From an uncultured delta proteobacterium (GTDB lineage Bacteria > Desulfobacterota > Zymogenia > Zymogenales > Zymogenaceae): a DNA stretch of 64,000 bases. Below the pieces are notes generated by a model. It was not told the DNA's origin, searched no databases, and saw nothing but the letters and a program-made list of their open reading frames with translations. Below are positions 1 to 14,465 of the stretch, piece by piece; positions within the stretch are counted from its first letter, which is position 1; each line of letters opens with the position of its first letter. The DNA lies in assembly GCA_963735595.1 (NCBI GenBank), contig CAVTLK010000001.1:672001-736000 (forward strand). The letters run 5' to 3'. The translations under genes were made by a program, and so were the position numbers.

Positions 1-1117
1 CGCACCGAACGACGATCTCCCGGTCGTGGACAAGGAAGAAGTCGGCTATATCCGAGAGACTCGCCAGCGCGTCCTCGTTCCCGATGGCAATCGGCTCTCC
101 GGAGCGGTTCCCGCTCGTCATGACCAGGGGCGGCATGTCGGAATCAAAAAGGAGGTGCTGCAACGGGGTGTAGGGCAGCATAACGCCGAAAGTTCCCATC
201 CCCGGGGCAACGGACTGCGCGACGATAGTCTTTTCGGTGCGTGGCATAAGAACAATCGGCCGCCTGGCCGACGTCAAGAGCGCTTGTTCTTCGGGCGTAA
301 TCTCGACAATCCGGCGGGCCTCCCGGAGATCCCTGACCATGAGCGCGAACGGCTTTTCTTCTCGAAGCTTGCGCCGCCTGAGCCGCAGGACCGCTTCGTC
401 ATCGGTCGCGTCGACGGCCAGGTGAAATCCCCCGACACCCCGGATCGCCATGATCGAGCCGGAACGCAACAAGCGCGCCGCCTCGCCCACTGGATCGCCC
501 GTGTCAACGGGCACGCCGTCGCCCGTCAGCAGCAGCACCTTCGGCCCGCAACGGGCGCAGGCGTTCGGCTGGGCGTGGAACCGCCGGCTTGCGGGATCCT
601 CGTATTCGCTCCTGCAGTCCGGACAGAGATCAAATGCAGCCATCGAGGTCTTTTCCCGGTCATAGGGGATATCTTGAATGATGGTCAGACGGGGGCCGCA
701 GTCGGTACAGTTGATGAATGGATAATGGTAGCGGCGATCGCCGGGGTCAAAGAGCTCCTCGACGCACCGGTCGCACGTCGCGATGTCGGGGGGGATGTGC
801 AGGGCCGATTGCCCGGTCCTGCGGCTCGCTATGATGCGAAACTCGTCGGCCCCGACCGTCGGGATCGTTTCTTTTACGAGAGCCGGTGATCTCGGCCAGC
901 GGCGGGAGTTCCGTTTCGGACGGCGGAAAAGAAGGATGATACCGAAGGGGGTTGTCCTTCCAGCTCCACGACAACGCCGTCCGACGTGTTCTTTACGAAC
1001 CCCGCCAGTCCGAAGCGTACGGCGTATCCGATAGATAAAGGGACGAAAGCCCACTCCCTGCACCGTGCCGGAGAACAGGGACCTCACGCGAATACGATCG
1101 TCCGAATTGGTTAACAA
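1..1117 (-). CDS. hypF: Carbamoyltransferase HypF, N-terminal part (runs off the window; several apparent indels)
   Basis: Manual reverse-strand translation gives the acylphosphatase motif GTVQGVGFRPFIYR and the zinc fingers ATCDRC..YPFINCTDCGPR and LCPDC..RRFHAQPNACARCGP. It follows hypD. Confidence 0.93.
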   Translation of the reverse strand, partial: MLTNSDDRIRVRSLFSGTVQGVGFRPFIYRIRRTLRTGGVRKEHVGRRCRGAGRTTPFGIILLFRRPKRNSRRWPRSPALVKETIPTVGADEFRIIASRRTGQSALHIPPDIATCDRCVEELFDPGDRRYHYPFINCTDCGPRLTIIQDIPYDREKTSMAAFDLCPDCRSEYEDPASRRFHAQPNACARCGPKVLLLTGDGVPVDTGDPVGEAARLLRSGSIMAIRGVGGFHLAVDATDDEAVLRLRRRKLREEKPFALMVRDLREARRIVEITPEEQALLTSARRPIVLMPRTEKTIVAQSVAPGMGTFGVMLPYTPLQHLLFDSDMPPLVMTSGNRSGEPIAIGNEDALASLSDIADFFLVHDREIVVRC

Positions 1118-1124
1118 GCATCCA

Positions 1125-2226
1125 TCATTGGTACTTGTAATAGGCCGCGCAGGTTCCCTCCGCCGAGACCATGCAGGGGCCGAGGGGGTTTCGAGGGAAG
1201 CACGCCGAGCCGAAACCGCGGACATTCGGGTGGCGAGATGATCCCCTTGAGCACGTCTCCGCAGCGGCAGCCCGGCGTATCGTGAGACTCAACGGCCGGG
1301 ATGTCAAATCGCATCGACGCGTCAAATCCCCGATACTCCTTACGAAAGCCAAGGCCGCTTTTCGGTATCATCCCGAGGCCCCGCCAGATGCGAGTCGGCC
1401 AGCTCGAAGACCTCGTATGAGGATCCTGCGGGCCGCCGCTATTGCCCTCTTCCTTGACGCGCGCGCCGATACTGAATCTCGGTCTTTACGTCTCCCGGAG
1501 ATGATCTGTTCCAGGATCATCAGATCCCTTCGAGGATGTCCACCGGCTCAAAACCGGTGATCACTCCCGCCCGGCCGCTTTCGGGCGATGATGCGAATAG
1601 GCGGCCGTCCCGAGGATCGTGCTCACGTGCCCGGGAAGCATGAAACCGTCCACGGAGATCAGGGGATCGGAAAGGAGTGCATCGATTGCCGGGGGGATAA
1701 CTTTATGAACGGAAAACACCGCGAGATTGGAAATGGAGCATGACACTGGCGGTCTTGACGACCGACGCCGCCGCCGGCGACGTCGTCTCGAATCCGATCC
1801 CCATGAAGACGATCTGCCGGTCCGGGATTGTTTTTGCGCCAGCGTCCAGACACTCCACCGCGGAATCGACGACCCTGACGTCCGCACCGTCGGCCCGCTC
1901 CTTTTCCAGCGACCGCCGTTCCGGTGCCGGGCACCCGGAGCATGTCGCCGAAGGAGGCAAATATGACGCCGGGCTGACGGGCCAGGAACAGCGCCGCGTC
2001 GACGTCCTGCACGGCAGGTCACGCAGACCGGACAGCCGGGTCCCGAAATAAGCCGGATGTTTTCGGGGAGCAGTCCCCGTATGCCGAAACGGCCGATGGC
2101 GTTGGTGTGGCTTCCGCAGACCTCCATAATGGTGATCGACCGGGTTAGCCGTCCCGCCCGTTTTCTGACTGCGGCCAGAAGCCCGTTAAAAAGCTTCGGG
2201 TCCCGATACTCGTCAATAAACTTCAT
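1125..2226 (-). CDS. hypD: Hydrogenase maturation protein HypD (frameshifted over several ORFs)
   Basis: MKFIDEYRD start, IMEVCGSHT, GPGCPVCVT, GIGFETT, GFMLPGHVS, GCRCGDVLKG and C-terminal PLGPCMVSAEGTCAAYYKY. Confidence 0.95.
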
Positions 2227-2440
2227 GTTCGGTAAGCTCCCGAAGCAGCGCAAGCTTCTCCCTGGCGAGCTCCTCATCGACCTTATGAATCGCGAAGCCC
2301 GCGTGACAGATGACGTAATCCCCGATCGTGACCTCTTCATCGATCAGGTCCAGAAAGGCCTCGCGCCGAGTCCCTTCGATATCGATAATCGCCCGATTAT
2401 CGTCGATGGAGATGATTTTCCCGGGAAATGCAATGCACAT
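2213..2440 (-). CDS. hypC: Hydrogenase assembly chaperone HypC
   Basis: MCIAFPGKI start and GDYVICHAGFAI motif; 75 aa. Confidence 0.96.
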   Translation of the reverse strand: MCIAFPGKIISIDDNRAIIDIEGTRREAFLDLIDEEVTIGDYVICHAGFAIHKVDEELAREKLALLRELTEHEVY

Positions 2441-2442
2441 TG

Positions 2443-2800
2443 CTACTCCTCTTGTTCCACTTCCATTTCGATGAGCTTCAGGTCTTCCGTGCCCCCTACC
2501 AGAAGCACCGAAGGATCACCGCATGAGGGGCACGATGAGTATCCCCTGATAGTCGATGTCATATTCCTTCCGACAGGAAGACACGAAATGACGACCGGAG
2601 TGATCTCGAAGGAAAGAACGGCCCCTTCGGCCCGGGTTCCCCGGGCCATCGCCTCAAACGCCGTCTCCAGGGCGTCCGGCTGGATGCACGACATCCTGCC
2701 GAACGAAAGCGTGATCCTGTCCGACTTTTGCCGCGTTGTTTTTTTCGGCGTGTTCAAGGGCGATCTCAAGGACCGACTGCGCCAGGCTCAGTTCGTGCAT
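2443..2800 (-). CDS. hypA: Hydrogenase nickel metallochaperone HypA (frameshifted)
   Basis: MHELSLAQSVLE start at 2800 after a GGAGG RBS; C-terminal CPSCG..GGTEDLKLIEMEVE. Confidence 0.9.
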
Positions 2801-3313
2801 TCCGGCCTCCTGACGGGTTTTACCGAGAGGGCCGCCAACTCCTCCAGCAGCAACCGCTCAATATCCGAAAATCGCTCGACCAACAGATCCGAAATCCTTA
2901 CTTCCATTGTATCATATTTCTCCGGCACGACGGTGATAAAAGTAACCGGCGGGCATTGATCCAAAAGATCGGCCATGGCAAGGACGTCCAGGAACTCCAC
3001 CTCGTGGGCCGACGTGGGTGCGTGGCAGATAGAGCGACATCTCTTCTTTCGTGAATCGGTATAGTGAGCCCGGCGTATCGTCGATCCTGATCGCATCGAT
3101 GACGATGAGATGCCCGGCGCCGGTGACGATATCCAGGAGACCCAGGCCCGCCGTCCCCCCGTCCACCAGCGAGACGGTATCCGGCAGTATATACCGATCC
3201 GAAAACCAGGCGATAAATCGGACCCCGAATCCGTCGTCCCCGACGAGGAGGTTGCCGAGTCCCAGTATGGTGATAGTTTTGTTTTGTTCATCGGCATGTA
3301 CGTAAAAAGACAA
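2788..3313 (-). CDS. Hydrogenase maturation endopeptidase (HyaD/HybD family), frameshifted; start uncertain
   Basis: ILGLGNLLVGDDGFG, VDGGTAG, IVIDAI and SAHEV motifs are spread over two overlapping ORFs. Confidence 0.92.
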
Positions 3314-3320
3314 GGTCGCA

Positions 3321-3356
3321 TAATAACAAAGTCCTCGCCGAAAAGCGAGGACTTTG
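3321..3356 (-). terminator. Hairpin/likely intrinsic terminator between hydrogenase structural and maturation genes
   Basis: Minus strand CAAAGTCCTCGC-TTTTCG-GCGAGGACTTTG followed by TTATTA. A second hairpin (GAGGGGAGA..TCTCCCCTC) lies at about 3367-3393. Confidence 0.6.
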
Positions 3357-3416
3357 CGAGATTTGTGAGGGGAGAGGATCCTTCTCCCCTCTCATTTCTT
3401 GAACAGGCGAGCCGAT

Positions 3417-4108
3417 TCAGTGCTCTTTGGCCTTAAAGACCATGCCGTTTATCATCGAGGAGACGGTGCCTTCCTTGAAGACGATGTCGTACCAGAAGGC
3501 CATATAAATGTGCACGATGATAAACAGGACAAAGAGCCAGGTCAGGATATGGTGGACGTAGCGCACCATCGCCAGCCCCCCCATGCAGACGCTCGACGGG
3601 GGTCAGTATCCAGGCGTAAGGCCCAGCAGCCCGTGATCGTATCCCGCCCCGGTGAGGATGAGTCCCGTAATGACGATGAGAAAGATCATCACGAAGAGCC
3701 CCATGTAGGACAGCGCCTGCAGCGGCCCGTACAGGTAGACGTGCTCCGGGCGCTCGTTGGACACGAGTAGGTAGAACTTGATCTGTTTAATGAAGTTCTT
3801 CCAATCGGTGATCGCGAGGAAGTTCTTCCAGTTGGCGTGAAACCTCTCGAAAGAACCCCATGTACATTCTCCAGACGAACAGTATCGTGAGGATCACGCC
3901 GAACAGGAGGTGATAGTACCGCATCTCCCCCATGAGGAACTTATGCACCGTCTCTCCGGACGACACCGAGAAACGGATCGGCGATATACCAGCCGGTTAC
4001 GATAAGGAAGAAGATGGAGATCGCCATGGCCCAGTGGTGCACGCGGATTGGCACCGTCCATTCCCTGACGGGTGTCCTCTTTTCCATGGCCGTATCTTTA
4101 TTTTCCAT
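3417..4108 (-). CDS. Ni/Fe-hydrogenase b-type cytochrome subunit (frameshifted; missing from the ORF track)
   Basis: Manual translation: MENKD..WTVPIRVHHWAMAISIFFLIVTGWYI, MRYYHLLFG, YGPLQALSY, VRYVHHILTWLFVLFIIVHIYMAFW..SSMINGMVFKAKEH*. It follows the large subunit directly. Confidence 0.92.
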
Positions 4109-4119
4109 GGCGGACTCCT

Positions 4120-5790
4120 TTACAATACTTTGAACTTCTTGATCTCGTTAGTCCTCGGGTCAATGATGTGGACGGCGCAGGCCATGCACGGATCAAACGA
4201 GTGGATCGTCCTGATGATCTCCAGCGGCTGATCAACGTTGGCAAGGCGAGTCCCGATCAGCGATTCTTCGTACGGCCCCCTGAGGCCGGCCGCATCCCTC
4301 GGCGAGCAGTTCCACGTCGAGGGAACGACCGCCTGGTAGTTTTCGATGACCTTGTTCTTGATCTTGATCCAGTGGCCCAGCGACCCGCGCGGCGCCTCTT
4401 TCATGCCGCGCCCTTGCGCCTCCTCGGGAACATCGCAGCGGGTCCACGTCCTGGTATCGCCGGACTTGATGTTGGTCACCAGCTCGTTGACCCAGGCCTC
4501 AGTATTGTCGGCGATGAGCTTGGTCTCGAGTGCCCGCGCGGCAGTCCTTCCAAGGGTTGAAAAGAGGACCGTGACCGGCAGTCCCGTGGCCTTGAGGGTG
4601 GAGTCGACCAGGTCCTTGATCTTCTGATCGCCCGTGGCATATCCGATGATGAAGCGTGCCAGCGGCCCCACCTCATAGGGGAGACCGTCGTACCGGGGCG
4701 CCTTGCACCAGGTATACTTCTCGTCGGCCTTGACGTGTCCGGACTCGTCGTAGTCGGTATAATTCGGTTCGGTTGACCCATCGTACGGGTGCAGCGGCTG
4801 GCCGTCCGTGTACCAGGAGTGCGTAACGTCCTCGGTGATCTTGGTCTCGTCAAGCTTCTCGACGTTTGCAAGGTCCCGGTTCTTGATGACGCCGGGCTGG
4901 AAGAACGTCGTGGTGTAGTCGTCGTCGAGGTTGATCCCCCCGTAGGAGAGGTAGTTCTTGACTCCGCCGCCGATCCCGGCCAAACCCTCGTCCTTGTAGT
5001 AGGTGGCCGCCAGCAGGACGTCCGGGATATACGCGGTCTCGACGAAGTTCCTCATCTCCTTGAGCCGGAAGAGATACTCGCCGATTCGGTAGGCGTCCAG
5101 CGTATCCATTACCGAGGTAACGCCGCCGGCAACCAGCGTCTGCGGGTGGGGGTTCTTGCCGCCGAAGATCGCCATCATCTGGGCGCCGACCTTTGAGACG
5201 GCCAGGGCGTCCAGGTAATGGGATACGATAATAAGGTTTGCCTCCGCGGGCAGCTTGTAGGAGGGGCTTCCCCAGTAGCCGTTGGCAAAGGGCCCTAACC
5301 GGCCCGATTCAACGAATTTTTTCAGCCGTTCCTGGACGGACTTATAGTGGGATGCGGAGGAATTGTACGGGTTGTCGCAATAGGCGCGCGCCATATCCTC
5401 GGCCCTCCGGGGGTCCGCCCCCAGGGCCGAAACGACGTCCACCCAGTCAAGACCGTGCAGGTGATAGAAATGCATGATGTGGTCGGTTATGTAGAGAGAT
5501 GCATTGATGAGGTTTCTCACGATACGGGCGTTCGTGGGCGGCTTGACCCCGAATGCGTCTTCCACTGCCAATATCGAGGCCTCATAATGGGAATAGGTGC
5601 AGACCCCGCAGAACCGCTGGGTCATGAGCCCCGCGTCCCGGGGGTCTCTCCCCTTGAGGATAGTCTCGATGCCCCGCCAGAGGGTGATGGTAGACCAGGC
5701 GTCCTTTACGGTATTACCCTCCAGCTCGACCTCTATGCGTAAATGTCCTTCAATCCGGGTAATCGGATCGATTATTATTTTCTGAGCCAT
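4120..5790 (-). CDS. [NiFe]-hydrogenase large subunit, group 1 (probably 1b)
   Basis: DPITRIEGHLRIEV, L1 motif QRFCGVCTYSH, L2 motif SFDPCMACAVH plus a cleavable C-terminal tail. Ligands are all Cys (no Sec). Confidence 0.97.
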   Translation of the reverse strand: MAQKIIIDPITRIEGHLRIEVELEGNTVKDAWSTITLWRGIETILKGRDPRDAGLMTQRFCGVCTYSHYEASILAVEDAFGVKPPTNARIVRNLINASLYITDHIMHFYHLHGLDWVDVVSALGADPRRAEDMARAYCDNPYNSSASHYKSVQERLKKFVESGRLGPFANGYWGSPSYKLPAEANLIIVSHYLDALAVSKVGAQMMAIFGGKNPHPQTLVAGGVTSVMDTLDAYRIGEYLFRLKEMRNFVETAYIPDVLLAATYYKDEGLAGIGGGVKNYLSYGGINLDDDYTTTFFQPGVIKNRDLANVEKLDETKITEDVTHSWYTDGQPLHPYDGSTEPNYTDYDESGHVKADEKYTWCKAPRYDGLPYEVGPLARFIIGYATGDQKIKDLVDSTLKATGLPVTVLFSTLGRTAARALETKLIADNTEAWVNELVTNIKSGDTRTWTRCDVPEEAQGRGMKEAPRGSLGHWIKIKNKVIENYQAVVPSTWNCSPRDAAGLRGPYEESLIGTRLANVDQPLEIIRTIHSFDPCMACAVHIIDPRTNEIKKFKVL

Positions 5791-5815
5791 TCTCACTCTC
5801 CTTTATGATGGCCTG

Positions 5816-7027
5816 CTACTTTTTTTCGGCTTTCTTCTTCTTGTCGTCTTCCGGGCCGTGGCGCTTGATGGCCGAAGCCGCTGCATGGGCGGCAACGCCG
5901 GCCACCGTGAGGCCCGCCAGGGTCGCGAAGACCGTGTTGACAGTGGACTCAACCCCCTTTACGCCGATCGCCCCATCGGATATCGGTTTTTCGAGGGGGG
6001 CCATCGTATCCCAGAAGGCCGGCTCGTAGCATCCCATACAGCCGTGACCGGCCATGATCGGCCACGAGGTGCCGTCGTTATAGCGGACCTTGCCGCAGTT
6101 CGCATAGGTGTAGGGGCCCTTGCACCCCATCTTATAGAGGCACCAGCCCCGCTTTGCGCCGGCGTCGCCCCATTCCTCGACATACTCGCCGGCGTCGTAG
6201 TGGGAGCGCCGCTCGCAGTAGTCGTGAATACGCTTTCCGTAGGCAAACAGCGGCCTGCCGAGGGAATCGGTGGCCGGCAGCGCCCCGAACATCAGGAAAT
6301 GGAGAACGGTCCCGACGAAGTTTACCGGGTTGGGGGGGCATCCCGCGATGTTGATCGTCCTGATCCCGAGGGAGTCCCGAATGCCCTTGGCATCCGTCGG
6401 GTTGGGCTTGGCAGCCTGGATGTTACCGAAGGAAGAGCAGCTCCCGATGCAGATGACGGCGGCGGCCTTCGAGGCCGCTTCCTTGCCGATCTCTTTTCCG
6501 GTTTTCCCCTCGCTCCCGATCCTCAGGTACTTGCCGTCCAGACCCTCGGGGATGGCACCCTCGATGACCAGCACGTACTGCCCCTCGAAATCGGCCATGG
6601 CCTTCGTGAGGTTTTCCTCGGCCTGCTTGCCGGAAGCGGCCATCAGGGTCTCGTGGTACTCCAGGGAGATCGTGTCCAGGAGAATGTCATCGACGTTCGG
6701 ATAGGACGTGCGCAGGAATGCCTCGCTGCACCCGGTGCACTCGGCGAAGTTAAGCCAGATGACCGGCAGCCGGCTGAAGTTCTCCGCCGCGCGCGCCACC
6801 ATGGGGCGGAACATCGGCGGGAGCATCATGACGCCGGTTATGAACGACGTCCACTTGACGAACTCCCTGCGTGAGACCCCCCGCGCCTTGAGGCTTTCCT
6901 GAAGACTCTCTCTCGGTTCGGGCAATGTCTCTTCAATTTGATCCAGTTGGACCTGACAGTACTCCATTAATTCCCGGTACTGCTTTTCTACCGTCCGGCG
7001 GTGGCCGGAGCCGTTTGTGCCGCCCAT
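5816..7027 (-). CDS. [NiFe]-hydrogenase small subunit with Tat signal and C-terminal membrane anchor
   Basis: SRREFVK twin-Arg motif, ECTGCSE, GCPPNP, HDYCERR, CLYKMGCKGP, GHGCMGC and a hydrophobic tail with His. AAAGGAGG RBS precedes the ATG at 7027. Confidence 0.97.
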   Translation of the reverse strand: MGGTNGSGHRRTVEKQYRELMEYCQVQLDQIEETLPEPRESLQESLKARGVSRREFVKWTSFITGVMMLPPMFRPMVARAAENFSRLPVIWLNFAECTGCSEAFLRTSYPNVDDILLDTISLEYHETLMAASGKQAEENLTKAMADFEGQYVLVIEGAIPEGLDGKYLRIGSEGKTGKEIGKEAASKAAAVICIGSCSSFGNIQAAKPNPTDAKGIRDSLGIRTINIAGCPPNPVNFVGTVLHFLMFGALPATDSLGRPLFAYGKRIHDYCERRSHYDAGEYVEEWGDAGAKRGWCLYKMGCKGPYTYANCGKVRYNDGTSWPIMAGHGCMGCYEPAFWDTMAPLEKPISDGAIGVKGVESTVNTVFATLAGLTVAGVAAHAAASAIKRHGPEDDKKKKAEKK

Positions 7028-7350
7028 AATGCCTCCTTTCAATAGATCATCTGGTCTCTGTAGGAAACTACTCGGTATAATCAATTAGATCGGCGCGCAA
7101 TCCTTCCGCCCCGCTTTCTGTACGGATTATCGATGCTCATTGGACATCGATGCCGGCAGGGAGCCGATTGCCCGGCTTCGTATCGAGCGGGTCTCGATAA
7201 TCGTGATGCCGACAACAAAGCACTCCGACCTGATGAGATCCGCTGTCAGTTCGCCGCTAAGATAAAACCGGTGTTTTGGGAAGGATACGCGATGCGCAAG
7301 GGTAAGATTCCGGGAAGATGACATGGGCACGTCATCCCGATCCTGCGCCG

Positions 7351-7493
7351 TTCTCCTTTCCAAACACGGGAGGCATGGGCGTTTCCGTCCATACCCTATC
7401 GTCCCTGTTCCATCGGCGGAGGGGAAAGGATTGCCTTTTCGTGGCCGTAAATCCCTTCCCGACCCGTACCATTAGGGCACAGGGATCGGAGAA
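7351..7493 (-). ncRNA. Moco/Wco riboswitch aptamer (P3-less, tungsten-cofactor-type architecture) in the hydrogenase leader
   Basis: Minus strand: P1 TTCTCC/GGAGAA; CCGA; P2 TCCCTGT..CCTAA..GATGG..ACAGGGA with an inserted hairpin; P4 AGGGTATGGACG-GAAA-CGCCCATGCCT; P5 and 3' end CCCGTGTTTGGAAAGGAG. This matches the remembered Moco motif consensus GCCTCCCG..TTTGGAAAGG. Confidence 0.88.
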
Positions 7494-7502
7494 AGCAGGT
7501 TA

Positions 7503-7531
7503 TTTATAGTGCAACCGCATAAAGATGTCAA
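7503..7531 (-). promoter_or_regulatory. Sigma70-type promoter for the hydrogenase operon
   Basis: TTGACA-17 nt-TATAAA; predicted start site near 7496, just 5' of the aptamer. Confidence 0.75.
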
Positions 7532-7684
7532 GGTTTTTTGATGGGCGGGTAGATGAAAAGAAGCGATAGGGGATAGCCCCACAATAGCGCTGTTATCCCG
7601 CTACCCATAACATGACAGCGGGCGGAAGTGAGGAGAGCGGCTAGCCGGCATCGGCCGCGTGCTGTCCTGCCGGAACGTACTCTA

Positions 7685-8534
7685 TTATGTATCGATTGCC
7701 AGGACGCTCACCAGGTCGACCGTGTCCCGGATATATCCCTCCCGTTTCGCAACGATATCAAGGCGGATGGTCGTAAGGTCCTCAAGTCTCGGGAAGGGCG
7801 TCGGCCTTTCTTTCGAGTCGACCGATTTCAGGTAGTGCTTACAGGTATCGCAGACATATACCCGGTGGGCGGGGTCGTTTTCAACCGTGAAATATCGTGT
7901 CTTTTCCCGCCCGGCTTCACCACAAAACGGACAGGTCAACCGGCGGAAGTTCCACCGCGTCAAACATCGGCCGCAGGAGAGCGTGAGACGTGCCGTCCTC
8001 TCCCTCGATGAGCGAAAGGTGCGGGGCGGCGCCGCACACGGGGCAGTAGGAGGCCGCCCACTTGTCCAGCAATCCGGTTCGCTCAAAGCTCTCCTTAATC
8101 GGATTAAGGAGATACCGCAGCGTCTCGTTTGCCGCCAGAAGCGCTACCGGACGCGAGCCCCCGAATCCCTCCGGAAAGAGATATTCCTGGCTCAGCACCC
8201 CGCTCAGCAGCGCCCGGAAGGCCTGCCGATCGCCGTAAAACCCGACGATTTCCTCGGCGCCTTTCTGATCCTTTTCGAGCACGACGGTTACCAGCCGGGC
8301 AAACCGCTTCCCGAGCCTTTCGACATCGTCAGGAATCAGCCGCACGTCGGCCAGAGGGAATCCGTCGGACAACCGGCCTGAATCCGGAGGGGCGTCCGCT
8401 TGCCTCTGCGTCCCCGTCTCTTCTCCGCCGATTCGCACAAAACCCGTCAGGATTGCCAGAAGCGGCTCGATTTTCGGGTCATTACTCATCGCCCGTTTAA
8501 TGGCGGCGATTTCGGGGTCTTTCATGTATGCCAT
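7685..8534 (-). CDS. fdhE: Formate dehydrogenase accessory protein FdhE (frameshifted)
   Basis: CPVCG..P, CGRCLTRW, CPFCG and CDTCKHYLK motifs, plus EDLTTIRLD; downstream of the gamma subunit. Confidence 0.88.
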
Positions 8535-8599
8535 TCCCCATAATGATTGGGGCGGCCGTACGGCCGCCCCTTCAATGATAGATCGGGTTTTCGGCTCAC

Positions 8600-9238
8600 T
8601 TAAGCCTTTGACTTTCGGGTTTCCTTGACGATCTTTTCCCGGTAGTAGCCGGGCATATGGGTCTTGGCCCACGCCTCGGTCACCTTGCCGTCCGTCATGA
8701 CCGGCAGGCTGCCCGTCGTGCCGACGGTGCCGAGATAGATGTGCACCATCGAAAACCCGCCCATGACGGCAACACCGAGGGCATGAAAGACCACCGTCCA
8801 CCGCATGAGCGGAGCCCAGATGAGGCCCTTTCCGAACCAGAGCAGTAACCCCGTGGCAATCATTACGGCGCCGTAGAGTGCCACCGTAATAAAGAACAGC
8901 TTCTGGCCCGCGTTGTACTTATACGGCTCGGGTATTTTCGCCTTCCAGAGGTAACCGCCCGCCGCCTTCATCCACTCGATATCTGTCTTGTCGATGTAGC
9001 CCGCTTCTTTATACCAGTGACGCACGGCAAAGACAAGGGCAATCGTGAAGACAAGGCCGATAAACCGGTGGTAGTCCTTGACCGCCCGGTAACCGCCGAG
9101 CATTTCGGCAAGGGGGGCAAACGCGTTGACGGCGATTATCAGACCGGTAAAGACCAGGGCCAGACACGTCCCCGCCAGAACCCAGTGGATTACCCGCTCG
9201 TAGGGGGTCGATGCGATAACGACTTTTTGCCCAGCCAT
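8600..9238 (-). CDS. fdnI: Formate dehydrogenase cytochrome b (gamma) subunit
   Basis: ERVIHW, YHRFIG, KYNAGQK, HALG, VHIY..MTDGKVTEAWAKTH; four TM helices. Confidence 0.93.
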   Translation of the reverse strand: MAGQKVVIASTPYERVIHWVLAGTCLALVFTGLIIAVNAFAPLAEMLGGYRAVKDYHRFIGLVFTIALVFAVRHWYKEAGYIDKTDIEWMKAAGGYLWKAKIPEPYKYNAGQKLFFITVALYGAVMIATGLLLWFGKGLIWAPLMRWTVVFHALGVAVMGGFSMVHIYLGTVGTTGSLPVMTDGKVTEAWAKTHMPGYYREKIVKETRKSKA

Positions 9239-9239
9239 G

Positions 9240-10043
9240 CTACTTACCTCCCTCTTCCTTGGGATGCTTCGGTCCCTTGATCATATAGTGAAGGAGCGCC
9301 CCCCGATGACGCCTCCGATTGACAGGAGTCCGAGCGGTTTGGCGATGTTTCTCCAGAGTTTTACGGTTATCGGGACGTGCGGCGAGACCGGGAGCTTCGC
9401 GTAGAGCTTTTCCTGCTCGGTCAGCACGTACATGACGTGGGTCCCATCGACGTAGTCCCTACCGTACAGGGAGGCCGCCAGACCTTTTTCGACAAGTTGG
9501 GCCACCCGCTGCTCTCCCTTGTCGATCATCTGCTCTTTGAGGCCGAAGCTGAGGCACCCGGTGGGGCATGCCTTGACGCAGGCCGGAATCATTCCGTTGG
9601 TGATTCTATCCTCGCAAAGGGTGCACTTATACGTCACCTTCGTCTCTGAGTCGTAGCGCGGTATACCGAACGGACAGGCAATGACGCAGTACTTGCAGCC
9701 GATGCAGAGGTCCCGGTTGAGCCTGACGGCCCCTTTCTCCCCGTACGTGAGGGCGCCGGAAGGGCAGACCCGCACGCAGGAGGCGTCGGTGCAGTGAAAG
9801 CACCCGTCCTTGCGGAAAATCCAGTCGACACTGCCGTCCTCTTTTTCACGCTCCTGGAAGCGGATGAGCGTCCAGGTGTTGTGTTGAAGGTCGGGAGGGT
9901 TTTGGTGGCTTCCCCAATTTGTTGTCTGGGCGCCCGGCTGTGAATTCCAGTTCTTGCAGGCAACCTGACAACCGCGGCATCCCGTGCACTTTGGAGAGGT
10001 CGATGAGTTTGACCATCTCTTCCTTTATCTTTGTCGCTGCCAT
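9240..10043 (-). CDS. fdnH: Formate dehydrogenase iron-sulfur (beta) subunit with C-terminal TM anchor (frameshifted)
   Basis: GCRGCQVACKNWN, GCFHCTDASCVRVCP, CIGCKYCVIACPFG, KCTLCEDR..PACVKACPTG, GTHVMYVL. Confidence 0.93.
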
Positions 10044-13000
10044 TATAGCCACCCTCCTTTCACCTTTTCAACATTAACCAGGAAGGCCTTGCTCTCGGGA
10101 ATTGAGGTGTTTGGGTCACCGATAGTCGACGTGAGCAGATTGGCCGAGTCGCCGAACGTGTAGACCTCCGGCTTGGGCACGGCAGGATCGCTGCTCTGCC
10201 CCTCCTCGGTGGTCCGCCACCCGAAGTGCCACGGGATACCGACCTGATGGAGCTCGACGTTGTCACCGAGTTTAAACGGTTTAAACCGCTTGGTCACGAT
10301 GGCAACGGCCACTATTTCGCCCCTGGCCGACGAGACCTTAACCCGGTCACCCCCTTCGATCCCCTTCATCTCCGCGAGCTCTTCGCTCATCTCTACAAAA
10401 TTTCCCGGCTGCATCTCTGCCAGCCAGGGCTGCCAGCGCGTCATAAGCCCGGTCTGCCAGTGTTCCGTAACGCGGTACGTAGTCGCCAGAATCGGGTACT
10501 TCGGATCGCAGGTGCCGGCGTAAACGTCGACGTCGCTGCCGACTTCCGGTCTATCGTAGCGGCGGATGACGGGACTGATGAGCTGTTTGGGATTGAGCAG
10601 GTTTGCCGGCACGGGACACTCGACAGGCTCATAGTGCACCGGGAACGGGCCGTCGGCAAGGCCGGGGCCGAATATCGATGCTACGCCCTCTTTCTGCATG
10701 ATGAAGGGGAGCCTCCCATCCGGGTTGGTGGACCCGTCGGCCTTTTTGAGCGGCGGATAATTCCCGTCGATGACATCCCCAACCCACTTGTCTCCGGCCC
10801 AGCGGACGACCGGCTTTGCCGGCGCCCACGGCTTGCCGGTGGGATCGACCGATGCGCGGTTGTAGATGATCCTCCGGTTGACGGGCCAGGACCATGCCCA
10901 TTTCGGGAAAAGACCGATGCCCGACGTATCCGTGTTGTTCCTTCGGGCGGAGTTGTTGCCGTCCGCGTTGTAGGACTGGGAATAGACCCAGCTACCGCTG
11001 GAGGTGGAACCGTCGTCCTGGAGCATTACGAACGAAGGCACGAGGTCCCCCTTCTTATACTGCTTGTCCTTGATGACTGTATCGTCGAGGAAGTATCCGT
11101 TTATCTCTTTGGCCACGTAGTGGCGTATCAAAGGCCTTCATCTTGCCCGAGTAGTCCTTAGGGCCGTATTCCCAGGCGAGCTTGGTGAAGGCTTCCTTCA
11201 AGACGGCGTTGTCCTTCTCCATGTGCTCCCTGACCTTGAAGAAAGAGCTCGGTATGATCTCGCCGTCGGCCATCGCCTCTCCCGGCGGATTGACCGCCTT
11301 ATAGCGCCATTGCATCCAGCGACCGGAGTTGGTGATGCTCCCCTCCTTTTCGAGGGACGCGGCGCACGGAAGCATGAAGACCTCTGTCTTGATATCGGCG
11401 GGTTCATTCCAGGACCCCGCCAGAAAGAGCCGGTCTCGTTGTCGAAGAGATTGACGTTCACGAGCCACTCGAGCTTCGCCAGGCCCTTTCTGACCTTATT
11501 CGCATGGGCACCGGAGCATGCCGGGTTCTGACCCCAGGCGAGCACACCCTTGAGTTTACCCTTGTAGGCGGCGTCCCAGATCTGCAGCCAGGAGTAGTTG
11601 ACGCCGTCGTCGGGCTTGGGGAGGTAGCCGTAGCCTCTTCGAGAGTGGCGTTCAAGCCGTAGAGCGCCCGCAGGAGACTCACCATATACTTGGGATAGTT
11701 GGATGCCCAGCTCGCGCTCAGGGGGTTGGATGGCTTGACTGCGTGATCCGGGCCGGTTGTAGGCGGCCAGCGTACGCCAGAGACGCGGTCGGCGCGGCGA
11801 GGTATCCGGGAAGAATATGGTAGAGGAGTGCCGTAGTCGGTGGAGCCCTGAACGTTGGACTCCCCCTCAGCGCGTTGACGCCGCCTCCGGCCACTCCCAT
11901 GTTGCCCAGAAGCATCTGGATGATGGACATCGCCCGGATGTTCTGGACGCCGACCGTGTGCTGCGTAAAGCCCATGGCGTACAGGATCGTCCCGGCCTTG
12001 TCGGACGCTCCCGCTCTTCGCGTACGCCTCGTAGACGGCCGATGAGCTTATCTTCGGGGGTGCCGGTAACCTGTGAGACCGTCTTCAGGCTCGTACCGGT
12101 CATACTCTTTCTTGAGCAGCTGTAAAACGCACTGCGGATCAGTAAGCGTCCGGTCTTTCATCGGGAACCCGTCCCCGCCGGCCACGAACGTCCAGGTCGC
12201 CTTATCGTATTTGCCGCCCGCCGGCGTCTCCGTCAGGCCGGAAAATACGCCGTCGTTGTCTGCCGCCAGCTTAAAGGCTGAATTGACGACAAACGACGCG
12301 TTCGTATATTCCCGGACGTATCTCAGAAGTAGAGCTTCTTTGTCGATGATATACCTGATCATACCGCCCAGAAAGGCGATATCCGATCCGGATCGGAGGG
12401 GGGCGTAGATGTGGGCCTTTGATGAAGTCTGGGTGAACCTCGGATCGACGCTGATAAGGACGGCACCGTTGTCGATAGCCCGCTGTACCCATTTGAAGGA
12501 AATCGGGTGATTTGCGGCAGCATTGCTGCCCATGACAAGAATGACGTCACTGTTCTTCAGATCGATCCAGTGATTGGTCATTGCGCCTCTACCGAACGAC
12601 TCTGCCAGAGCCGCTACCGTTGCGCTGTGTCAGATACGGGCCTGGTGTTCAATATACACCAGGCCTAACCCCCTCAGGAATTTCTGATAGACATAGCATT
12701 CTTCGTTGTCCATGGCCGCGCTGCCGACCGAGGCGACCGCGGTCGTTCGGTTGACGACCTGGCCCTTGTCGTTGGTGCGGGTGAAGCTCTCGTTGCGGGA
12801 CTTGACGATTCTCTTGGCGATCTTGTCGAGGGCCCAGTCCCACGATACCGCTTCCCATTTGTCCGAGCCGGGGGCGCGGTAGAGGGGAGTCGACAGGCGG
12901 GCGTCATTGACCGCTATCTGATAGAGCGAGCCGCCCTTCGGGCAGAGGGAACCCTCGTTGATCGGGTGATCTGGATCGCCCTCGGTGTTGATCACCGTGC

Positions 13001-13187
13001 CGTTGCGGGTATGGACGATGATTCCGCAGCCCACCGCGCAGTAGGGACAGATGGTGGTCGTCTCTGTGGCGTACAGGGTTTTCAGCGGGAGCGCCTCCGC
13101 CCGAACCGAAGCGATATTCAGGCCCAGACCTCCCACGAAGACCGTGGCGCCGGTTAGTCTAAGAAACGTACGTCTGGTAACTTCCAT
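10043..13187 (-). CDS. fdnG: Selenocysteine-containing Mo/W formate dehydrogenase alpha subunit (Tat signal); Sec UGA at 12630-12632; several indels
   Basis: TRRTFL Tat motif, CPYCAVGCG..CPKG, EHQARI-UGA-HSATVAALAESFGRGAMTNHW in frame, MGFTQHTVG, and C-terminal TTYRVTEHWQTG..PESKAFLVNV. Confidence 0.96.
12596..12614 (-). promoter_or_regulatory. Bacterial SECIS hairpin
   Basis: 15 nt after the UGA: GCGGCTCT-GGC-AGAGTCGT stem-loop with a G-containing apical loop. Confidence 0.75.
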
Positions 13188-13258
13188 GGCTCTCCTCTTT
13201 GCCTGAGTAATACTTTATTGACCGTTGACGTTCAACCCGATTGGCCAACCAAACCAAT

Positions 13259-13315
13259 AAAAAAAAGGAAGAGATACCTCCCCCTTGTCCCCATGGGAAG
13301 GTCATCTCTTCCTTT
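13259..13315 (-). terminator. Intrinsic terminator inside the fdnG leader (riboswitch expression platform)
   Basis: AAAGGAAGAGAT-G-ACCTTCCC...GGGGAGGT-ATCTCTTCC followed by T8. It lies 70 nt upstream of the fdnG ATG and downstream of the promoter. Confidence 0.88.
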
Positions 13316-13392
13316 GCAAACGGCGGGGTAAGCGATCTCTCCCTTACCCGTATCGGCTCACGGATCCCGTCGGGATCGGTGAACTCGGAAGA
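13307..13392 (-). ncRNA. Compact variant of the Moco/Wco riboswitch aptamer upstream of fdnG
   Basis: P1 TCTTCC/GGAAGA; CCGAG; P2 GTTCAC-[GATCCC GAC GGGATC]-GTGAGC; linker CGATA; P4 GGGTAAG-GGA-GAGA-TCG-CTTACCC; P5 GC-CGTTT-GC then AAAGG. Same topology as the 7351-7493 element. Confidence 0.7.
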
Positions 13393-13408
13393 TAGTATTT
13401 TCGCGAAA

Positions 13409-13437
13409 ATAATATACGGGTGGTACTAAAATGTCAA
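13409..13437 (-). promoter_or_regulatory. Sigma70-type promoter for the fdn operon
   Basis: TTGACA-17 nt-TATTAT; predicted start site near 13402, about 10 nt before the aptamer. Confidence 0.75.
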
Positions 13438-13547
13438 GAACTTAAACGCAGTACCGACCACAATAATGTGGGGGATGTGGACGGTTAATATCTCGGGCAG
13501 GCGGCCGTTTTTCTCGCGAAACTACCGCATCACGGTCGTGCCGGCGA

Positions 13548-14465
13548 TTATAGGGCCGTGAAGTCTCTGATTTCGCGGAGGACGTCGTCGATGTCATAGG
13601 GATATTCGAGACGGTAAATCCTTTCCATTTTACGAAACCAGGTCATCTGGCGTTTGGCGTACCGTCTGGTGTTTCTTTTGATGAGCGCGATCGTCTCGTC
13701 AAGGCCGAGCTTCCCCTCGAGATGGTCCACGATCTCCCGGTACCCGATTGTCTCAAGCCCGGGCGACCGGGGGCCGTACCCCATATCGAGGAGACGCTGC
13801 ACTTCGCGAACGATCCCGTCCGATATCATCAGGTCAACCCGATCATCAATCCGACGGTTGAGGGCCTCGCGTTCCATCGAAAGGCAAAAGGTGATCGCAT
13901 CGTAGCGTCTCGTTGAAAACGAGTGGCGGGCCGCCAGCTCGCTCTTGGGTATCCCCGTCAATCGGTAGATCTCCAGGGCCCGAATAAGCCGTACCCGGTC
14001 GTTTTGGCCGATATGGCCGGCCGACCGGGCGTCTACCCGCTCAAGCTCCTCCCTCAGACGGTCGGTCGAAAGTACTCCCAGCTCCTCCCGCACCATCCCC
14101 CCGTCCGGCGAACCGGGCAGCTCGAAGATACCGAAGACCAGGGCCTTGAGGTAGAGGCCCGTCCCTCCTGTCACGATCGGGACTGCCGCGTCGCCGACGA
14201 TTTCTTCGATAGCGCGGTCTGCCGCCCGTGCATAGGCCATCGCGTTATATCGGCGGTCGGGATCGATTATATCAATGAGATAGTGGGGAACCCTCTCGCG
14301 TTCGGCCGTGGTCGGCTTGGCGGTGCCGATATCGAGGTATCGGTAGACCGCCGCAGAGTCCGCCGAGACGATCCGGCCGCCGATCTGTTCCGCTATATCC
14401 GCCGCGAGGCCCGATTTGCCCGAGGCGGTGGGGCCGGTGATGATAACGATTTTCGCCAGCGTCAT
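13548..14465 (-). CDS. miaA: tRNA dimethylallyltransferase
   Basis: GPTASGKS, DIGTAKP, GGTGLY, TRRYAKRQMTWF; follows mutL. Confidence 0.97.
   Translation of the reverse strand: MTLAKIVIITGPTASGKSGLAADIAEQIGGRIVSADSAAVYRYLDIGTAKPTTAERERVPHYLIDIIDPDRRYNAMAYARAADRAIEEIVGDAAVPIVTGGTGLYLKALVFGIFELPGSPDGGMVREELGVLSTDRLREELERVDARSAGHIGQNDRVRLIRALEIYRLTGIPKSELAARHSFSTRRYDAITFCLSMEREALNRRIDDRVDLMISDGIVREVQRLLDMGYGPRSPGLETIGYREIVDHLEGKLGLDETIALIKRNTRRYAKRQMTWFRKMERIYRLEYPYDIDDVLREIRDFTAL

What the first reader, a model, noticed from the sequence alone, without database searches (positions are those of the whole stretch)
7351..7493. Canonical P3-less (tungsten-type) Moco riboswitch upstream of an enzyme with no pterin cofactor
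Seen: near-textbook 3' half (AGGG..G-GAAA-C..GCCTCCCGTGTTTGGAAAGGAG), CCTAA/GATGG internal loop in P2, only GAT between P2 and P4, and an extra hairpin (GGGAAGGGATT..AATCCTTTCCC) inserted in P2. It has its own promoter, so it is not just a 3' remnant of the fdn transcript. Known: aptamers lacking P3 were proposed to sense the tungsten cofactor. The first downstream gene is the hydrogenase small subunit, an unexpected target.
Basis: partly seen in the sequence, partly recalled or inferred. Interest (0 to 1): 0.8.

Follow-up and report, generated by a model that had tools for sequence, protein, structure and literature searches.

The report
Tungsten-cofactor riboswitch heading hydrogenase operon
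A well-conserved RNA of the molybdenum/tungsten-cofactor riboswitch family sits under a predicted promoter of its own in front of a nickel-iron hydrogenase operon that encodes no such cofactor enzyme, and it likely shuts the hydrogenase off when tungsten cofactor is plentiful, while a second, compact copy is predicted to switch the neighbouring formate dehydrogenase on.

Summary
Confirmed. Rfam RF01055 hits 7337-7503(-) at 64.9 bits with P3 absent. The RNA heads hydS-hydL-cytochrome b-hyp genes in 9 of 10 family genomes, under three kinds of upstream context, with compensatory pairs and a conserved TTGACA-17-TA promoter. No lost W/Mo gene lies in the leader and none in the operon. The one genome without it also lacks FdnG. 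This genome has six copies: full-size ones before tupA, tupBC-moeA-moaA, an NAD aldehyde dehydrogenase/group-3 hydrogenase operon and this hydrogenase; compact ones with ON-type terminators before AOR and fdnG (the latter, 13295-13401, missed by Rfam). Best reading (0.55): a tungsten-driven formate-versus-hydrogen toggle, hydrogenase OFF. Direction is not settled: this genus's leader also looks like a weak ON terminator (0.22). Not new in kind: a 2022 review has one line on Wco riboswitches before hydrogenase genes, the 2008 supplement lists one case, and this scan reported similar cases on other DNA. Ligand binding and expression are untested.

The parts
7503..7531 (-). Predicted sigma-70-type promoter of the hydrogenase leader (TTGACA 7526-7531, 17 nt, TATAAA 7503-7508); start near 7496 inferred
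   Evidence: same arrangement before 9 of 9 orthologous RNAs; not called by the strict scanner
7351..7493 (-). P3-less Moco/Wco riboswitch aptamer (P1, P2 with CCUAA/GAUGG loop, P4 with GAAA loop, P5)
   Evidence: RF01055 64.9 bits; 92.7% of cells paired, 8 pairs changed on both sides across 9 orthologs
7422..7460 (-). Inserted hairpin capping P2; variable among relatives
7286..7349 (-). Predicted expression-platform spacer hairpin (core 7312-7338), compatible with the folded aptamer
   Evidence: folds; arms kept in the four congeners
7268..7285 (-). Anti-aptamer: pyrimidine-rich strand predicted to pair with P5 and the 3' strand of P1
   Evidence: duplex -16.1 kcal/mol, p = 0.12 against shuffles here, p <= 0.05 in 3 of 9 orthologs
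7259..7267 (-). U-rich run directly after the anti-aptamer (possible pause or weak terminator tail)
   Evidence: similar runs in G001-G003 and L252
7032..7040 (-). Ribosome-binding site of hydS
   Evidence: conserved
5816..7027 (-). [NiFe] hydrogenase small subunit, group-1 type, twin-arginine motif in the N-terminal part
   Evidence: TIGR00391 457 bits; alignment
4120..5796 (-). [NiFe] hydrogenase large subunit
   Evidence: NF033181 595.7 bits, NF007778 541 bits
1..4100 (-). Rest of the operon: cytochrome b (about 3400-4100), maturation protease (2912-3313), hypA-like (about 2443-2800), hypC (2213-2440), hypD, hypF-like (runs past the window start); several frames broken by single-base indels
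   Evidence: cytochrome b from the intact G001 ortholog (TIGR02125); hypA and hypF named from their N-termini (recalled, not scanned)
7556..7602 (-). Predicted terminator hairpin with U-rich tail closing the fdn genes
7685..13187 (-). fdnG (selenocysteine TGA at 12630-12632), fdnH, fdnI, fdhE: quinone-linked W/Mo formate dehydrogenase
   Evidence: NCBIfam; in-frame TGA with a SECIS-like hit at 12577-12635 (E 0.009, below gathering)
13295..13401 (-). Compact Moco/Wco RNA before fdnG, not caught by Rfam in this genome
   Evidence: nhmmer profile of 9 relatives' compact RNAs, E 7e-23; orthologs in G001-G003 pass the Rfam cut-off, 45.9-54.6 bits; no RF01055 hit here
13258..13312 (-). Intrinsic-terminator-like hairpin whose 5' arm is the 3' strand of the compact RNA's P1, then U8: predicted ON switch for fdnG
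   Evidence: sequence; ortholog folds

Best explanation
This P3-less Moco/Wco riboswitch heads a pterin-free [NiFe] hydrogenase operon, and it likely acts as an OFF switch, so that the hydrogenase would be made when tungsten cofactor is scarce and the tungsten/selenium formate dehydrogenase cannot be loaded. Shown: the RNA, its conservation with the hydrogenase, the content of the operon, and a second, compact RNA with a P1-overlapping terminator before fdnG. Inferred steps: (1) transcription starts near 7496; (2) bound cofactor (Wco more likely than Moco) holds P1/P5; (3) the pyrimidine-rich strand at 7268-7285, which otherwise pairs with the aptamer's 3' end, is freed; (4) the transcript then ends in the ribosome-free 325-nt leader, by Rho in this genus (weakest step) or at a hairpin/U-run in genus g5; (5) the compact RNA does the opposite for fdnG. 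Both enzymes have a cytochrome b and face the periplasm, so the pair would set whether the quinone pool exchanges electrons with formate or with H2. The same logic would pair NAD aldehyde dehydrogenase with tungsten AOR, and a group-3 hydrogenase module with the cytoplasmic FDH.
For: RNA before hydS in 9 of 10 family genomes. Upstream neighbours differ: fdn on the same strand in 5, fdn divergent in G006, unrelated genes in G007-G009, so it travels with the hydrogenase. Structure is under selection: 0 of 500 shuffles reach the pairing or covariation score; slid controls pair 40-55%. No W/Mo gene in the operon: it ends at hypF (G000, new promoter-like sites follow), at hypE (G004, G007) or before unrelated genes (G006). 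Clean split among the 43 family RNAs analysed: 33 full-size copies precede tupA (10), tupB-type permease (4), NAD aldehyde dehydrogenase (9), group-1 (9) or group-3 hydrogenase genes (1); 10 compact copies precede AOR-type (7) or fdnG (3) genes; 4 more compact copies found before fdnG. In 7 of those 10 compact copies the hairpin before the U-run reaches into P1 and vanishes when the aptamer is held. Hydrogenase leaders of G007-G009 have an aptamer-independent hairpin plus U-rich tail at +29 to +31, where tupA terminators of the same genomes start (+28). G005, the one genome whose hydS has no RNA, has no FdnG (best E 3e-18) and a plain promoter-like site there. A terminator-like hairpin and a new promoter separate fdn from hyd although they are co-oriented. 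Separate lineage with fdnGHI-RNA-hyd: L278, L285. C exceeds G at +40..130 in 31 of 33 full-size leaders against 41% of 275 control windows; rho is present. TupA-type but no modB over cut-off in G000. Print (passages): in S. wolfei menaquinol is reoxidised by either a membrane hydrogenase or an FDH (PMC5101538); in P. carbinolicus AORs with this RNA rise with tungstate (PMC3543383, PMC4275255).
Against: In this genus the helix that invades the aptamer ends right at a U-rich run (7259-7267), which reads formally as an ON terminator: stem probability 0.88 free vs 0.02 held in G001, 0.35 vs 0.01 in G002, and the same fold in G000/G003. The same signature appears in tupA leaders of G000 and G003 (0.98/0.85 vs 0.35/0.19), so it is not diagnostic, but it is not explained either. 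No aptamer-compatible intrinsic terminator with a proper U-run was found in the G000 leader. RBS accessibility does not change in the model (0.02 vs 0.02). The anti-aptamer beats shuffles in only 3 of 9 hydrogenase leaders (p = 0.12 here). For the G007-G009 hairpins no antiterminator was found; they form in both states. Outside the family, full-size P3-less RNAs also precede W/Mo enzymes (AOR in L212, L216, L220; xanthine-dehydrogenase-type in L199, L205, L206; fdnG in L275), so aptamer type alone does not fix direction. G005 is one genome, 88% complete, and one deletion could remove fdn and RNA together; G009 keeps the RNA with no FdnG found (88% complete). L253, inside the family clade, lacks the RNA. 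Four loci with co-oriented fdn genes before hydS show no RNA (L304, L313, L318, L322; only L304 was scanned with Rfam). C-richness is partly forced by complementarity, and kin are not independent. In P. carbinolicus hydrogenase activity did not change with tungstate (no such RNA is reported before that hydrogenase).
Confidence: 0.55

Rival explanations
1. ON switch. Without cofactor the long helix from P5 to 7268 forms and, with the U-run at 7259-7267, ends transcription; bound cofactor blocks it. Hydrogenase would then be co-induced with FDH as one formate/H2 module.
For: The invading helix is followed within 0-4 nt by a U-rich run in G000-G003 and L252, like the AOR and fdnG switches. 4 of the 5 metagenome loci with the RNA before hydS have fdn genes next door. 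A full-size aptamer can be wired ON-like (L275 fold hides the RBS when free).
Against: The same signature is in tupA leaders of this genus, where OFF is expected. The stem base is bulged and encloses about 70 nt. In aldehyde dehydrogenase leaders with the strongest invading helix (G006-G008, p 0.005-0.01) and in L285 no U-run follows it. G007-G009 hydrogenase leaders carry tupA-like hairpins. Co-induction would not need a terminator, a new promoter and a different RNA type between two co-oriented operons.
Confidence: 0.22
2. The switch controls the hydrogenase, but the ligand is molybdopterin or either metal cofactor, so it reports general pterin-cofactor supply and not tungsten.
For: P3-less = tungsten is a genomic correlation with exceptions, and direct binding was not shown (PMC2408646). 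P3-less RNAs precede moaA, moeA and ModA-like binding proteins in many lineages. The metal of FdnG cannot be read from sequence.
Against: In G000 the RNAs head tupA, tupBC and a W-type AOR, and no modB passes its cut-off (genome 93% complete).
Confidence: 0.12
3. The riboswitch only tunes one of two transcripts; a second promoter or a protein regulator in the long leader carries most hydrogenase expression.
For: Leaders are 312-485 nt. G007, G008 and G009 have a TTGACA/TTAACA hexamer with a 15-nt spacer at a shared place in the leader; G004 has weak candidates.
Against: No site of 9/12 or better in G000-G003 or G006; 15-nt spacers are poor; the four leaders with candidates are AT-rich.
Confidence: 0.08
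4. Orphan: the RNA is a relic of a lost tup/mod/moa gene, or belongs to the fdn transcript or to a distant W gene of the same operon.
For: fdn is directly upstream in 5 of 9 genomes, and a cytoplasmic selenocysteine FDH lies about 13 kb beyond hypF on the same strand in G000.
Against: No such gene in any of 9 leaders; the RNA stays with hydS when fdn is divergent or elsewhere; compensatory pairs; new promoter-like sites after hypF, and unrelated genes after the operon in G004, G006, G007.
Confidence: 0.03

Closest known systems
Moco RNA motif / Moco-Wco (Tuco) riboswitch, Rfam RF01055, P3-less subclass (Regulski et al. 2008, PMC2408646)
   Same: Full-length model match, P1/P2/P4/P5, GAAA loop and receptor-like P2 loop, no P3; sister copies before tupA, tupBC-moeA-moaA and AOR, the usual targets.
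   Different: Target is a [NiFe] hydrogenase operon with no pterin enzyme; the RBS lies 310 nt beyond P1, not in it as for E. coli moaA; about 50-nt cap on P2.
Tandem Moco RNAs before an [FeFe] hydrogenase-cytochrome b cluster in Syntrophomonas wolfei (rows Swo-1-8/-10, Suppl. Fig. S2 of PMC2408646); one-line remark on tandem Wco riboswitches before 'ferredoxin hydrogenase' and 'nickel and zinc binding hydrogenase' genes (PMC9481103)
   Same: RNA of this family before a hydrogenase with cytochrome b, in a genome that also has one before an fdnGHI-type operon (row Swo-1-11).
   Different: Unrelated hydrogenase class and phylum; single, not tandem. The 2008 main text never mentions hydrogenase and the passage of the 2022 review gives no direction or rationale. 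That Swo-1-8/-10 is Hyd2 is my inference from the cytochrome b gene.
Cobalamin riboswitches repressing B12-independent isozymes (category named in PMC3766115; metE and nrdAB as examples are recalled)
   Same: Cofactor-sensing RNA placed on the cofactor-free alternative of a cofactor-dependent enzyme.
   Different: Here the alternative makes or uses a different electron carrier (H2 instead of formate), and the OFF direction is inferred.
Rho-coupled riboswitches of E. coli (PMC5499598, abstract only)
   Same: Ligand-bound RNA leads to Rho-dependent termination where no intrinsic terminator is seen.
   Different: In thiM the Rho sites are in the coding region and follow translation block; here they would be in a long untranslated leader. 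Untested.

Membership tests
Moco/Wco riboswitch family (RF01055) | Covariance-model score above gathering over the whole model | tested here: met
   64.9 vs 36 bits, positions 1-135
Moco/Wco riboswitch family (RF01055) | P1, P2, P4, P5 with covariation; GNRA loop on P4 and receptor loop in P2 | tested here: met
   GAAA and CCUAA invariant in 9 of 9
P3-less (proposed Wco) subclass | No P3 stem | tested here: met
   CGATA only between P2 and P4
P3-less (proposed Wco) subclass | Host genome has tungsten uptake and tungsten-type enzymes | tested here: met
   TupA-like (NF041772 best hit for the G001 ortholog, 252 bits, under its cut-off of 400), tupBC, five AOR-family loci, no modB over cut-off
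P3-less (proposed Wco) subclass | Downstream gene makes, imports or uses the cofactor | tested here: not met
   Operon is hydS-hydL-cytb-protease-hyp genes only; this is the point of the finding, and exceptions are in print
Riboswitch (cis-acting, 5' leader) | Lies in the 5' leader of the controlled mRNA | tested here: inconclusive
   Promoter and orientation conserved in 9 of 9, no internal promoter-like site in G000; no transcript data
Riboswitch (cis-acting, 5' leader) | Expression platform with two exclusive folds and a defined output | tested here: inconclusive
   Alternative helix predicted; output (Rho, terminator, RBS) and direction unresolved
Riboswitch (cis-acting, 5' leader) | Direct, selective binding of Wco or Moco | not testable with these tools
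   Not shown for the family in the 2008 paper either
Group-1 membrane-bound [NiFe] hydrogenase | Small subunit with Tat motif and C-terminal anchor, large subunit, cytochrome b, maturation protease | tested here: met
   HydDB subgroup not assigned

The most novel reading that the evidence does not exclude
One metabolite, tungsten cofactor, drives a genome-wide RNA toggle with two aptamer forms of opposite sign: compact ON switches on tungsten enzymes (FDH, AOR) and full-size OFF switches on their cofactor-free stand-ins (two hydrogenases, NAD aldehyde dehydrogenase) and on uptake. Tungsten supply would then decide whether these anaerobes trade formate or H2, and the wiring arose more than once, on unrelated [NiFe] and [FeFe] hydrogenases.
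Probability: 0.4. Interest if true: 0.75.

Novelty: new variant of a known kind. Interest (0 to 1): 0.52.

Why it matters
Whether anaerobic partners pass electrons as H2 or as formate is a standing question, and for S. wolfei different studies found the membrane hydrogenase or the membrane FDH dominant. An RNA switch that ties this choice to tungsten gives a concrete, testable cause. The two adjacent leaders in this window (7250-7535 and 13250-13440) are a ready pair of reporters predicted to move in opposite directions, and an ON/OFF pair is a cleaner test of the still unproven Wco ligand than one repressible leader. If the direction is ON instead, it still shows cofactor control of an enzyme that does not use the cofactor. 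The RNA family and the bare link to hydrogenase genes are known, which caps the score.

Tried and rejected
RNA evidence: no RNA holder listed; three runs of contigs laid on 4000-13600 gave only short pieces of other organisms and none on 6889-8493; no conclusion drawn. The 78-codon ORF 7127-7363 starts inside the aptamer and has no counterpart of 70 codons or more in G001 or G002: rejected as a gene. Direct RBS switching in G000: no change in the model. Equilibrium folding could not show switching even for tupA terminators, so it cannot settle direction. In 150 genomes of the phylum, 60 RNAs lay in 30 genomes of other families; I read the genes after 42 of them plus one from G015, none a hydrogenase, and no [NiFe] large subunit lay within 40 kb downstream of any RNA in the 29 of those genomes searched; [FeFe] genes were not searched for the unread ones. 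The careful tree did not finish; the quick tree is quoted. Literature: searches found no paper that tests or explains a Moco/Wco riboswitch on a hydrogenase; the library lacks most subscription papers (Plugge et al. 2009 not held). PMC8892533 and PMC5317091 (passages) added nothing. Only parts 3-4 of 31 and a term search of the 2008 supplement were read; supplements of the 2022 review were not read and may list [NiFe] cases.

Full report
Observation. Each named motif is at the stated place. The hairpin inserted in P2 is real but is the variable cap of that stem. Upstream lie TTGACA, 17 nt and TATAAA; the strict scanner rejects this -10, but the arrangement recurs before 9 of 9 orthologous RNAs. 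A hairpin with a U-rich tail at 7556-7602 closes the fdn genes.

Neighbourhood. On the minus strand: fdnG (in-frame TGA and a weak SECIS-like hit), fdnH, fdnI, fdhE, then the RNA, a 325-nt leader, hydS, hydL, cytochrome b, protease and hyp genes. Many frames in the window are broken by single-base indels and are intact in G001 or G004, which I read as assembly error. After hypF come about 500 nt with new promoter-like sites; in G004 and G007 the cluster ends at hypE, and in G006 unrelated genes follow. So no W/Mo gene is in the unit. The lineage is most likely Candidatus Zymogenaceae, Desulfobacterota, a class described as fermentative (bioRxiv 2021.03.22.436540, passages).

Conservation. The RNA precedes hydS in 9 of 10 family genomes (the G008 contig ends just after the hydS start). 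Upstream of it is fdn on the same strand in 5, fdn pointing away in G006, and unrelated genes in G007-G009. Leaders are 312-485 nt with no tup, mod or moa gene. Across the 9 aptamers 92.7% of cells pair and 8 of 29 pairs change on both sides; slid controls pair 40-55% (the sequences are kin, so the shuffle counts are not probabilities). G005 is the exception: miaA abuts a plain promoter-like site before hydS, with no RNA, and no FdnG was found in that genome (88% complete).

The regulon. G000 has five Rfam hits and a sixth, compact copy at window 13295-13401 before fdnG that Rfam misses. Of 45 hits in the ten genomes I analysed 43; two G003 copies were left out (one a second tupA copy, one not fetched). 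All 33 full-size copies precede uptake or biosynthesis genes (14), NAD aldehyde dehydrogenase (9) or hydrogenase genes (10). All 10 compact copies precede AOR-type genes (7) or fdnG (3) (one AOR named by eye). Four more compact copies stand before fdnG in G000, G006, G007 and G008, and none was found in G004. In G000 the aldehyde dehydrogenase is followed by a NuoG/HoxU-like gene and a group-3 hydrogenase; in G002 that module has its own RNA. The NuoG-like protein is 37% identical to the cytoplasmic selenocysteine FDH and lacks the DxxARL-U/C-H stretch seen there (the motif's meaning is recalled).

Direction. Compact copies end in a hairpin that uses the 3' strand of P1 and is followed by a U-run; in 7 of 10 it disappears when the aptamer is held, in 3 the score is ambiguous. 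That is ON logic, and it fits tungstate induction of RNA-led AORs in P. carbinolicus (PMC3543383 and PMC4275255, passages). tupA leaders have an aptamer-independent terminator in 5 of 10; hydrogenase leaders of G007-G009 have a hairpin with a U-rich tail at the same offset. In G000 the predicted platform is a spacer hairpin and then a strand (7268-7285) that pairs with P5/P1. This helix is followed at once by a U-rich run, in all four congeners and nearly so in L252, which reads as a weak ON terminator. The same signature is in tupA leaders of G000 and G003, and the strongest such helices (aldehyde dehydrogenase, G006-G008) have no U-run. The helix is significant against shuffles in 3 of 9 hydrogenase leaders, not in G000 (p 0.12). 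RBS access is unchanged in G000. The freed region is C-rich in 31 of 33 full-size leaders against 41% of 275 control windows, and rho is present, which makes Rho the best candidate for the output; Rho-coupled riboswitches are known (PMC5499598, abstract). I put OFF at 0.55 and ON at 0.22. Outside this family, full-size RNAs also precede W/Mo enzymes, so the split by aptamer form is a family trait, not a rule.

Breadth. The link is rare. None of 43 RNAs read from other Desulfobacterota families precedes a hydrogenase. From the other side, of the 80 closest metagenome relatives of hydS, 68 had 600 nt or more upstream; 43 were scanned with Rfam and all with a less sensitive family profile. Five have the RNA facing hydS: three in the family clade and two (L278, L285) in a separate clade of the quick tree, again as fdn-RNA-hyd, while their sister L296 has neither fdn nor RNA. 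The tree needs 4 changes of the label (at least 3 on well-supported branches); independent gain is possible, not shown. Seven of the 11 loci with fdn genes next to hydS have no RNA facing hydS.

What is known. Regulski et al. 2008 (PMC2408646; main text parts 1, 2, 4, 5 of 7, term search, supplement parts 3-4 of 31) proposed that P3-less RNAs sense tungsten cofactor, on correlation, and suggested for two exceptions that a gene may be repressed when the cell has a tungsten alternative. Their supplement lists tandem RNAs before an [FeFe] hydrogenase-cytochrome b cluster and another before an fdnGHI-type operon in S. wolfei; the main text never says hydrogenase. A 2022 review notes in one line tandem Wco riboswitches before hydrogenase-related genes (PMC9481103, passages). 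In S. wolfei either a membrane hydrogenase or a membrane FDH reoxidises menaquinol, depending on conditions (PMC5101538, PMC3582634, passages). A 2023 review states Wco binding as fact, citing the 2008 work (PMC10265488, passages). My searches found no test or explanation of the hydrogenase link. Earlier notes of this scan report the same idea on other genomes; I had written this reading down before looking, and they are unchecked AI notes, not support.

Verdict. A true family member by every testable structural feature, with an unusual target kept across a family. New here: a single copy on a group-1 [NiFe] operon, both hydrogenase operons with such an RNA in G000 and G002, an opposite-looking compact copy on the adjacent FDH, and joint absence of RNA and FdnG in one genome. 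New variant of a known kind; interest 0.52.

Noticed in passing
window 13295-13401 (-), terminator 13258-13312: Compact Moco/Wco RNA before fdnG, missed by Rfam in this genome (it is 1-2 nt short in the P5 loop against G001 and G002); its terminator overlaps P1, a predicted ON switch.
   Followed up: yes
G000:C1:155067-161866 (+): Full-size RNA, NAD aldehyde dehydrogenase, NuoG/HoxU-like gene, group-3 [NiFe] hydrogenase, protease-like gene; no NuoE/F genes in the unit, so it may borrow the diaphorase module encoded beside the cytoplasmic FDH (G000:C1, about 656500-663800).
   Followed up: partly
G005:C7:181690-182149 (-); G007:C49:10087-10400 (+): Tandem copies: two full-size RNAs before aldehyde dehydrogenase in G005, two compact RNAs before AOR in G007.
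   Followed up: partly
L275:367-1755: Full-size P3-less RNA faces fdnG, divergent from hydS, with a small ModE-like ORF between (named by eye); the free-state fold hides the RBS, an ON-like wiring.
   Followed up: partly
G007, G008, G009 hydrogenase leaders (L048, L042, L038), about 135-190 nt after the Rfam hit: Shared TTGACA/TTAACA site, in G009 part of an inverted repeat: a second promoter or an operator.
   Followed up: no
L092, L107, L116, L128: P3-less RNAs head genes for secreted proteins with a CBM96-like domain (two with a FlgD Ig-like domain) in three records titled Ignavibacteria and one titled Zixibacteria; role in metal uptake unknown.
   Followed up: no
L129, L142, L147; L099, L136, L150: P3-less RNAs before ECF-type transport genes (ABC_cobalt permease, tandem ATPase) in Anaerolineae, WOR-3 and Actinomycetota records: candidate importers of the cofactor itself.
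   Followed up: no
L073, L079, L080/L081: In Actinomycetota records the RNA precedes an unassigned ORF with a GTP/ATP-binding-like motif, upstream of tupA-like genes; no Pfam hit at 1e-8.
   Followed up: no
G000:C5, about 169100-170300 (-): After tupA lies a membrane protein that looks like a MOT1-type molybdate/tungstate transporter (named by eye, not scanned).
   Followed up: no
window 1-13200: Many single-base frameshifts in fdnG, fdnH, fdhE, cytochrome b, hypA, hypD and hypF; orthologs in G001 or G004 are intact, so probably assembly errors.
   Followed up: partly
G000:C1, about 670300-670600 (-): After hypF, two promoter-like sites and a perfect inverted repeat (possible regulator site) before an MFS transporter of the lactate or oxalate/formate type.
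   Followed up: no
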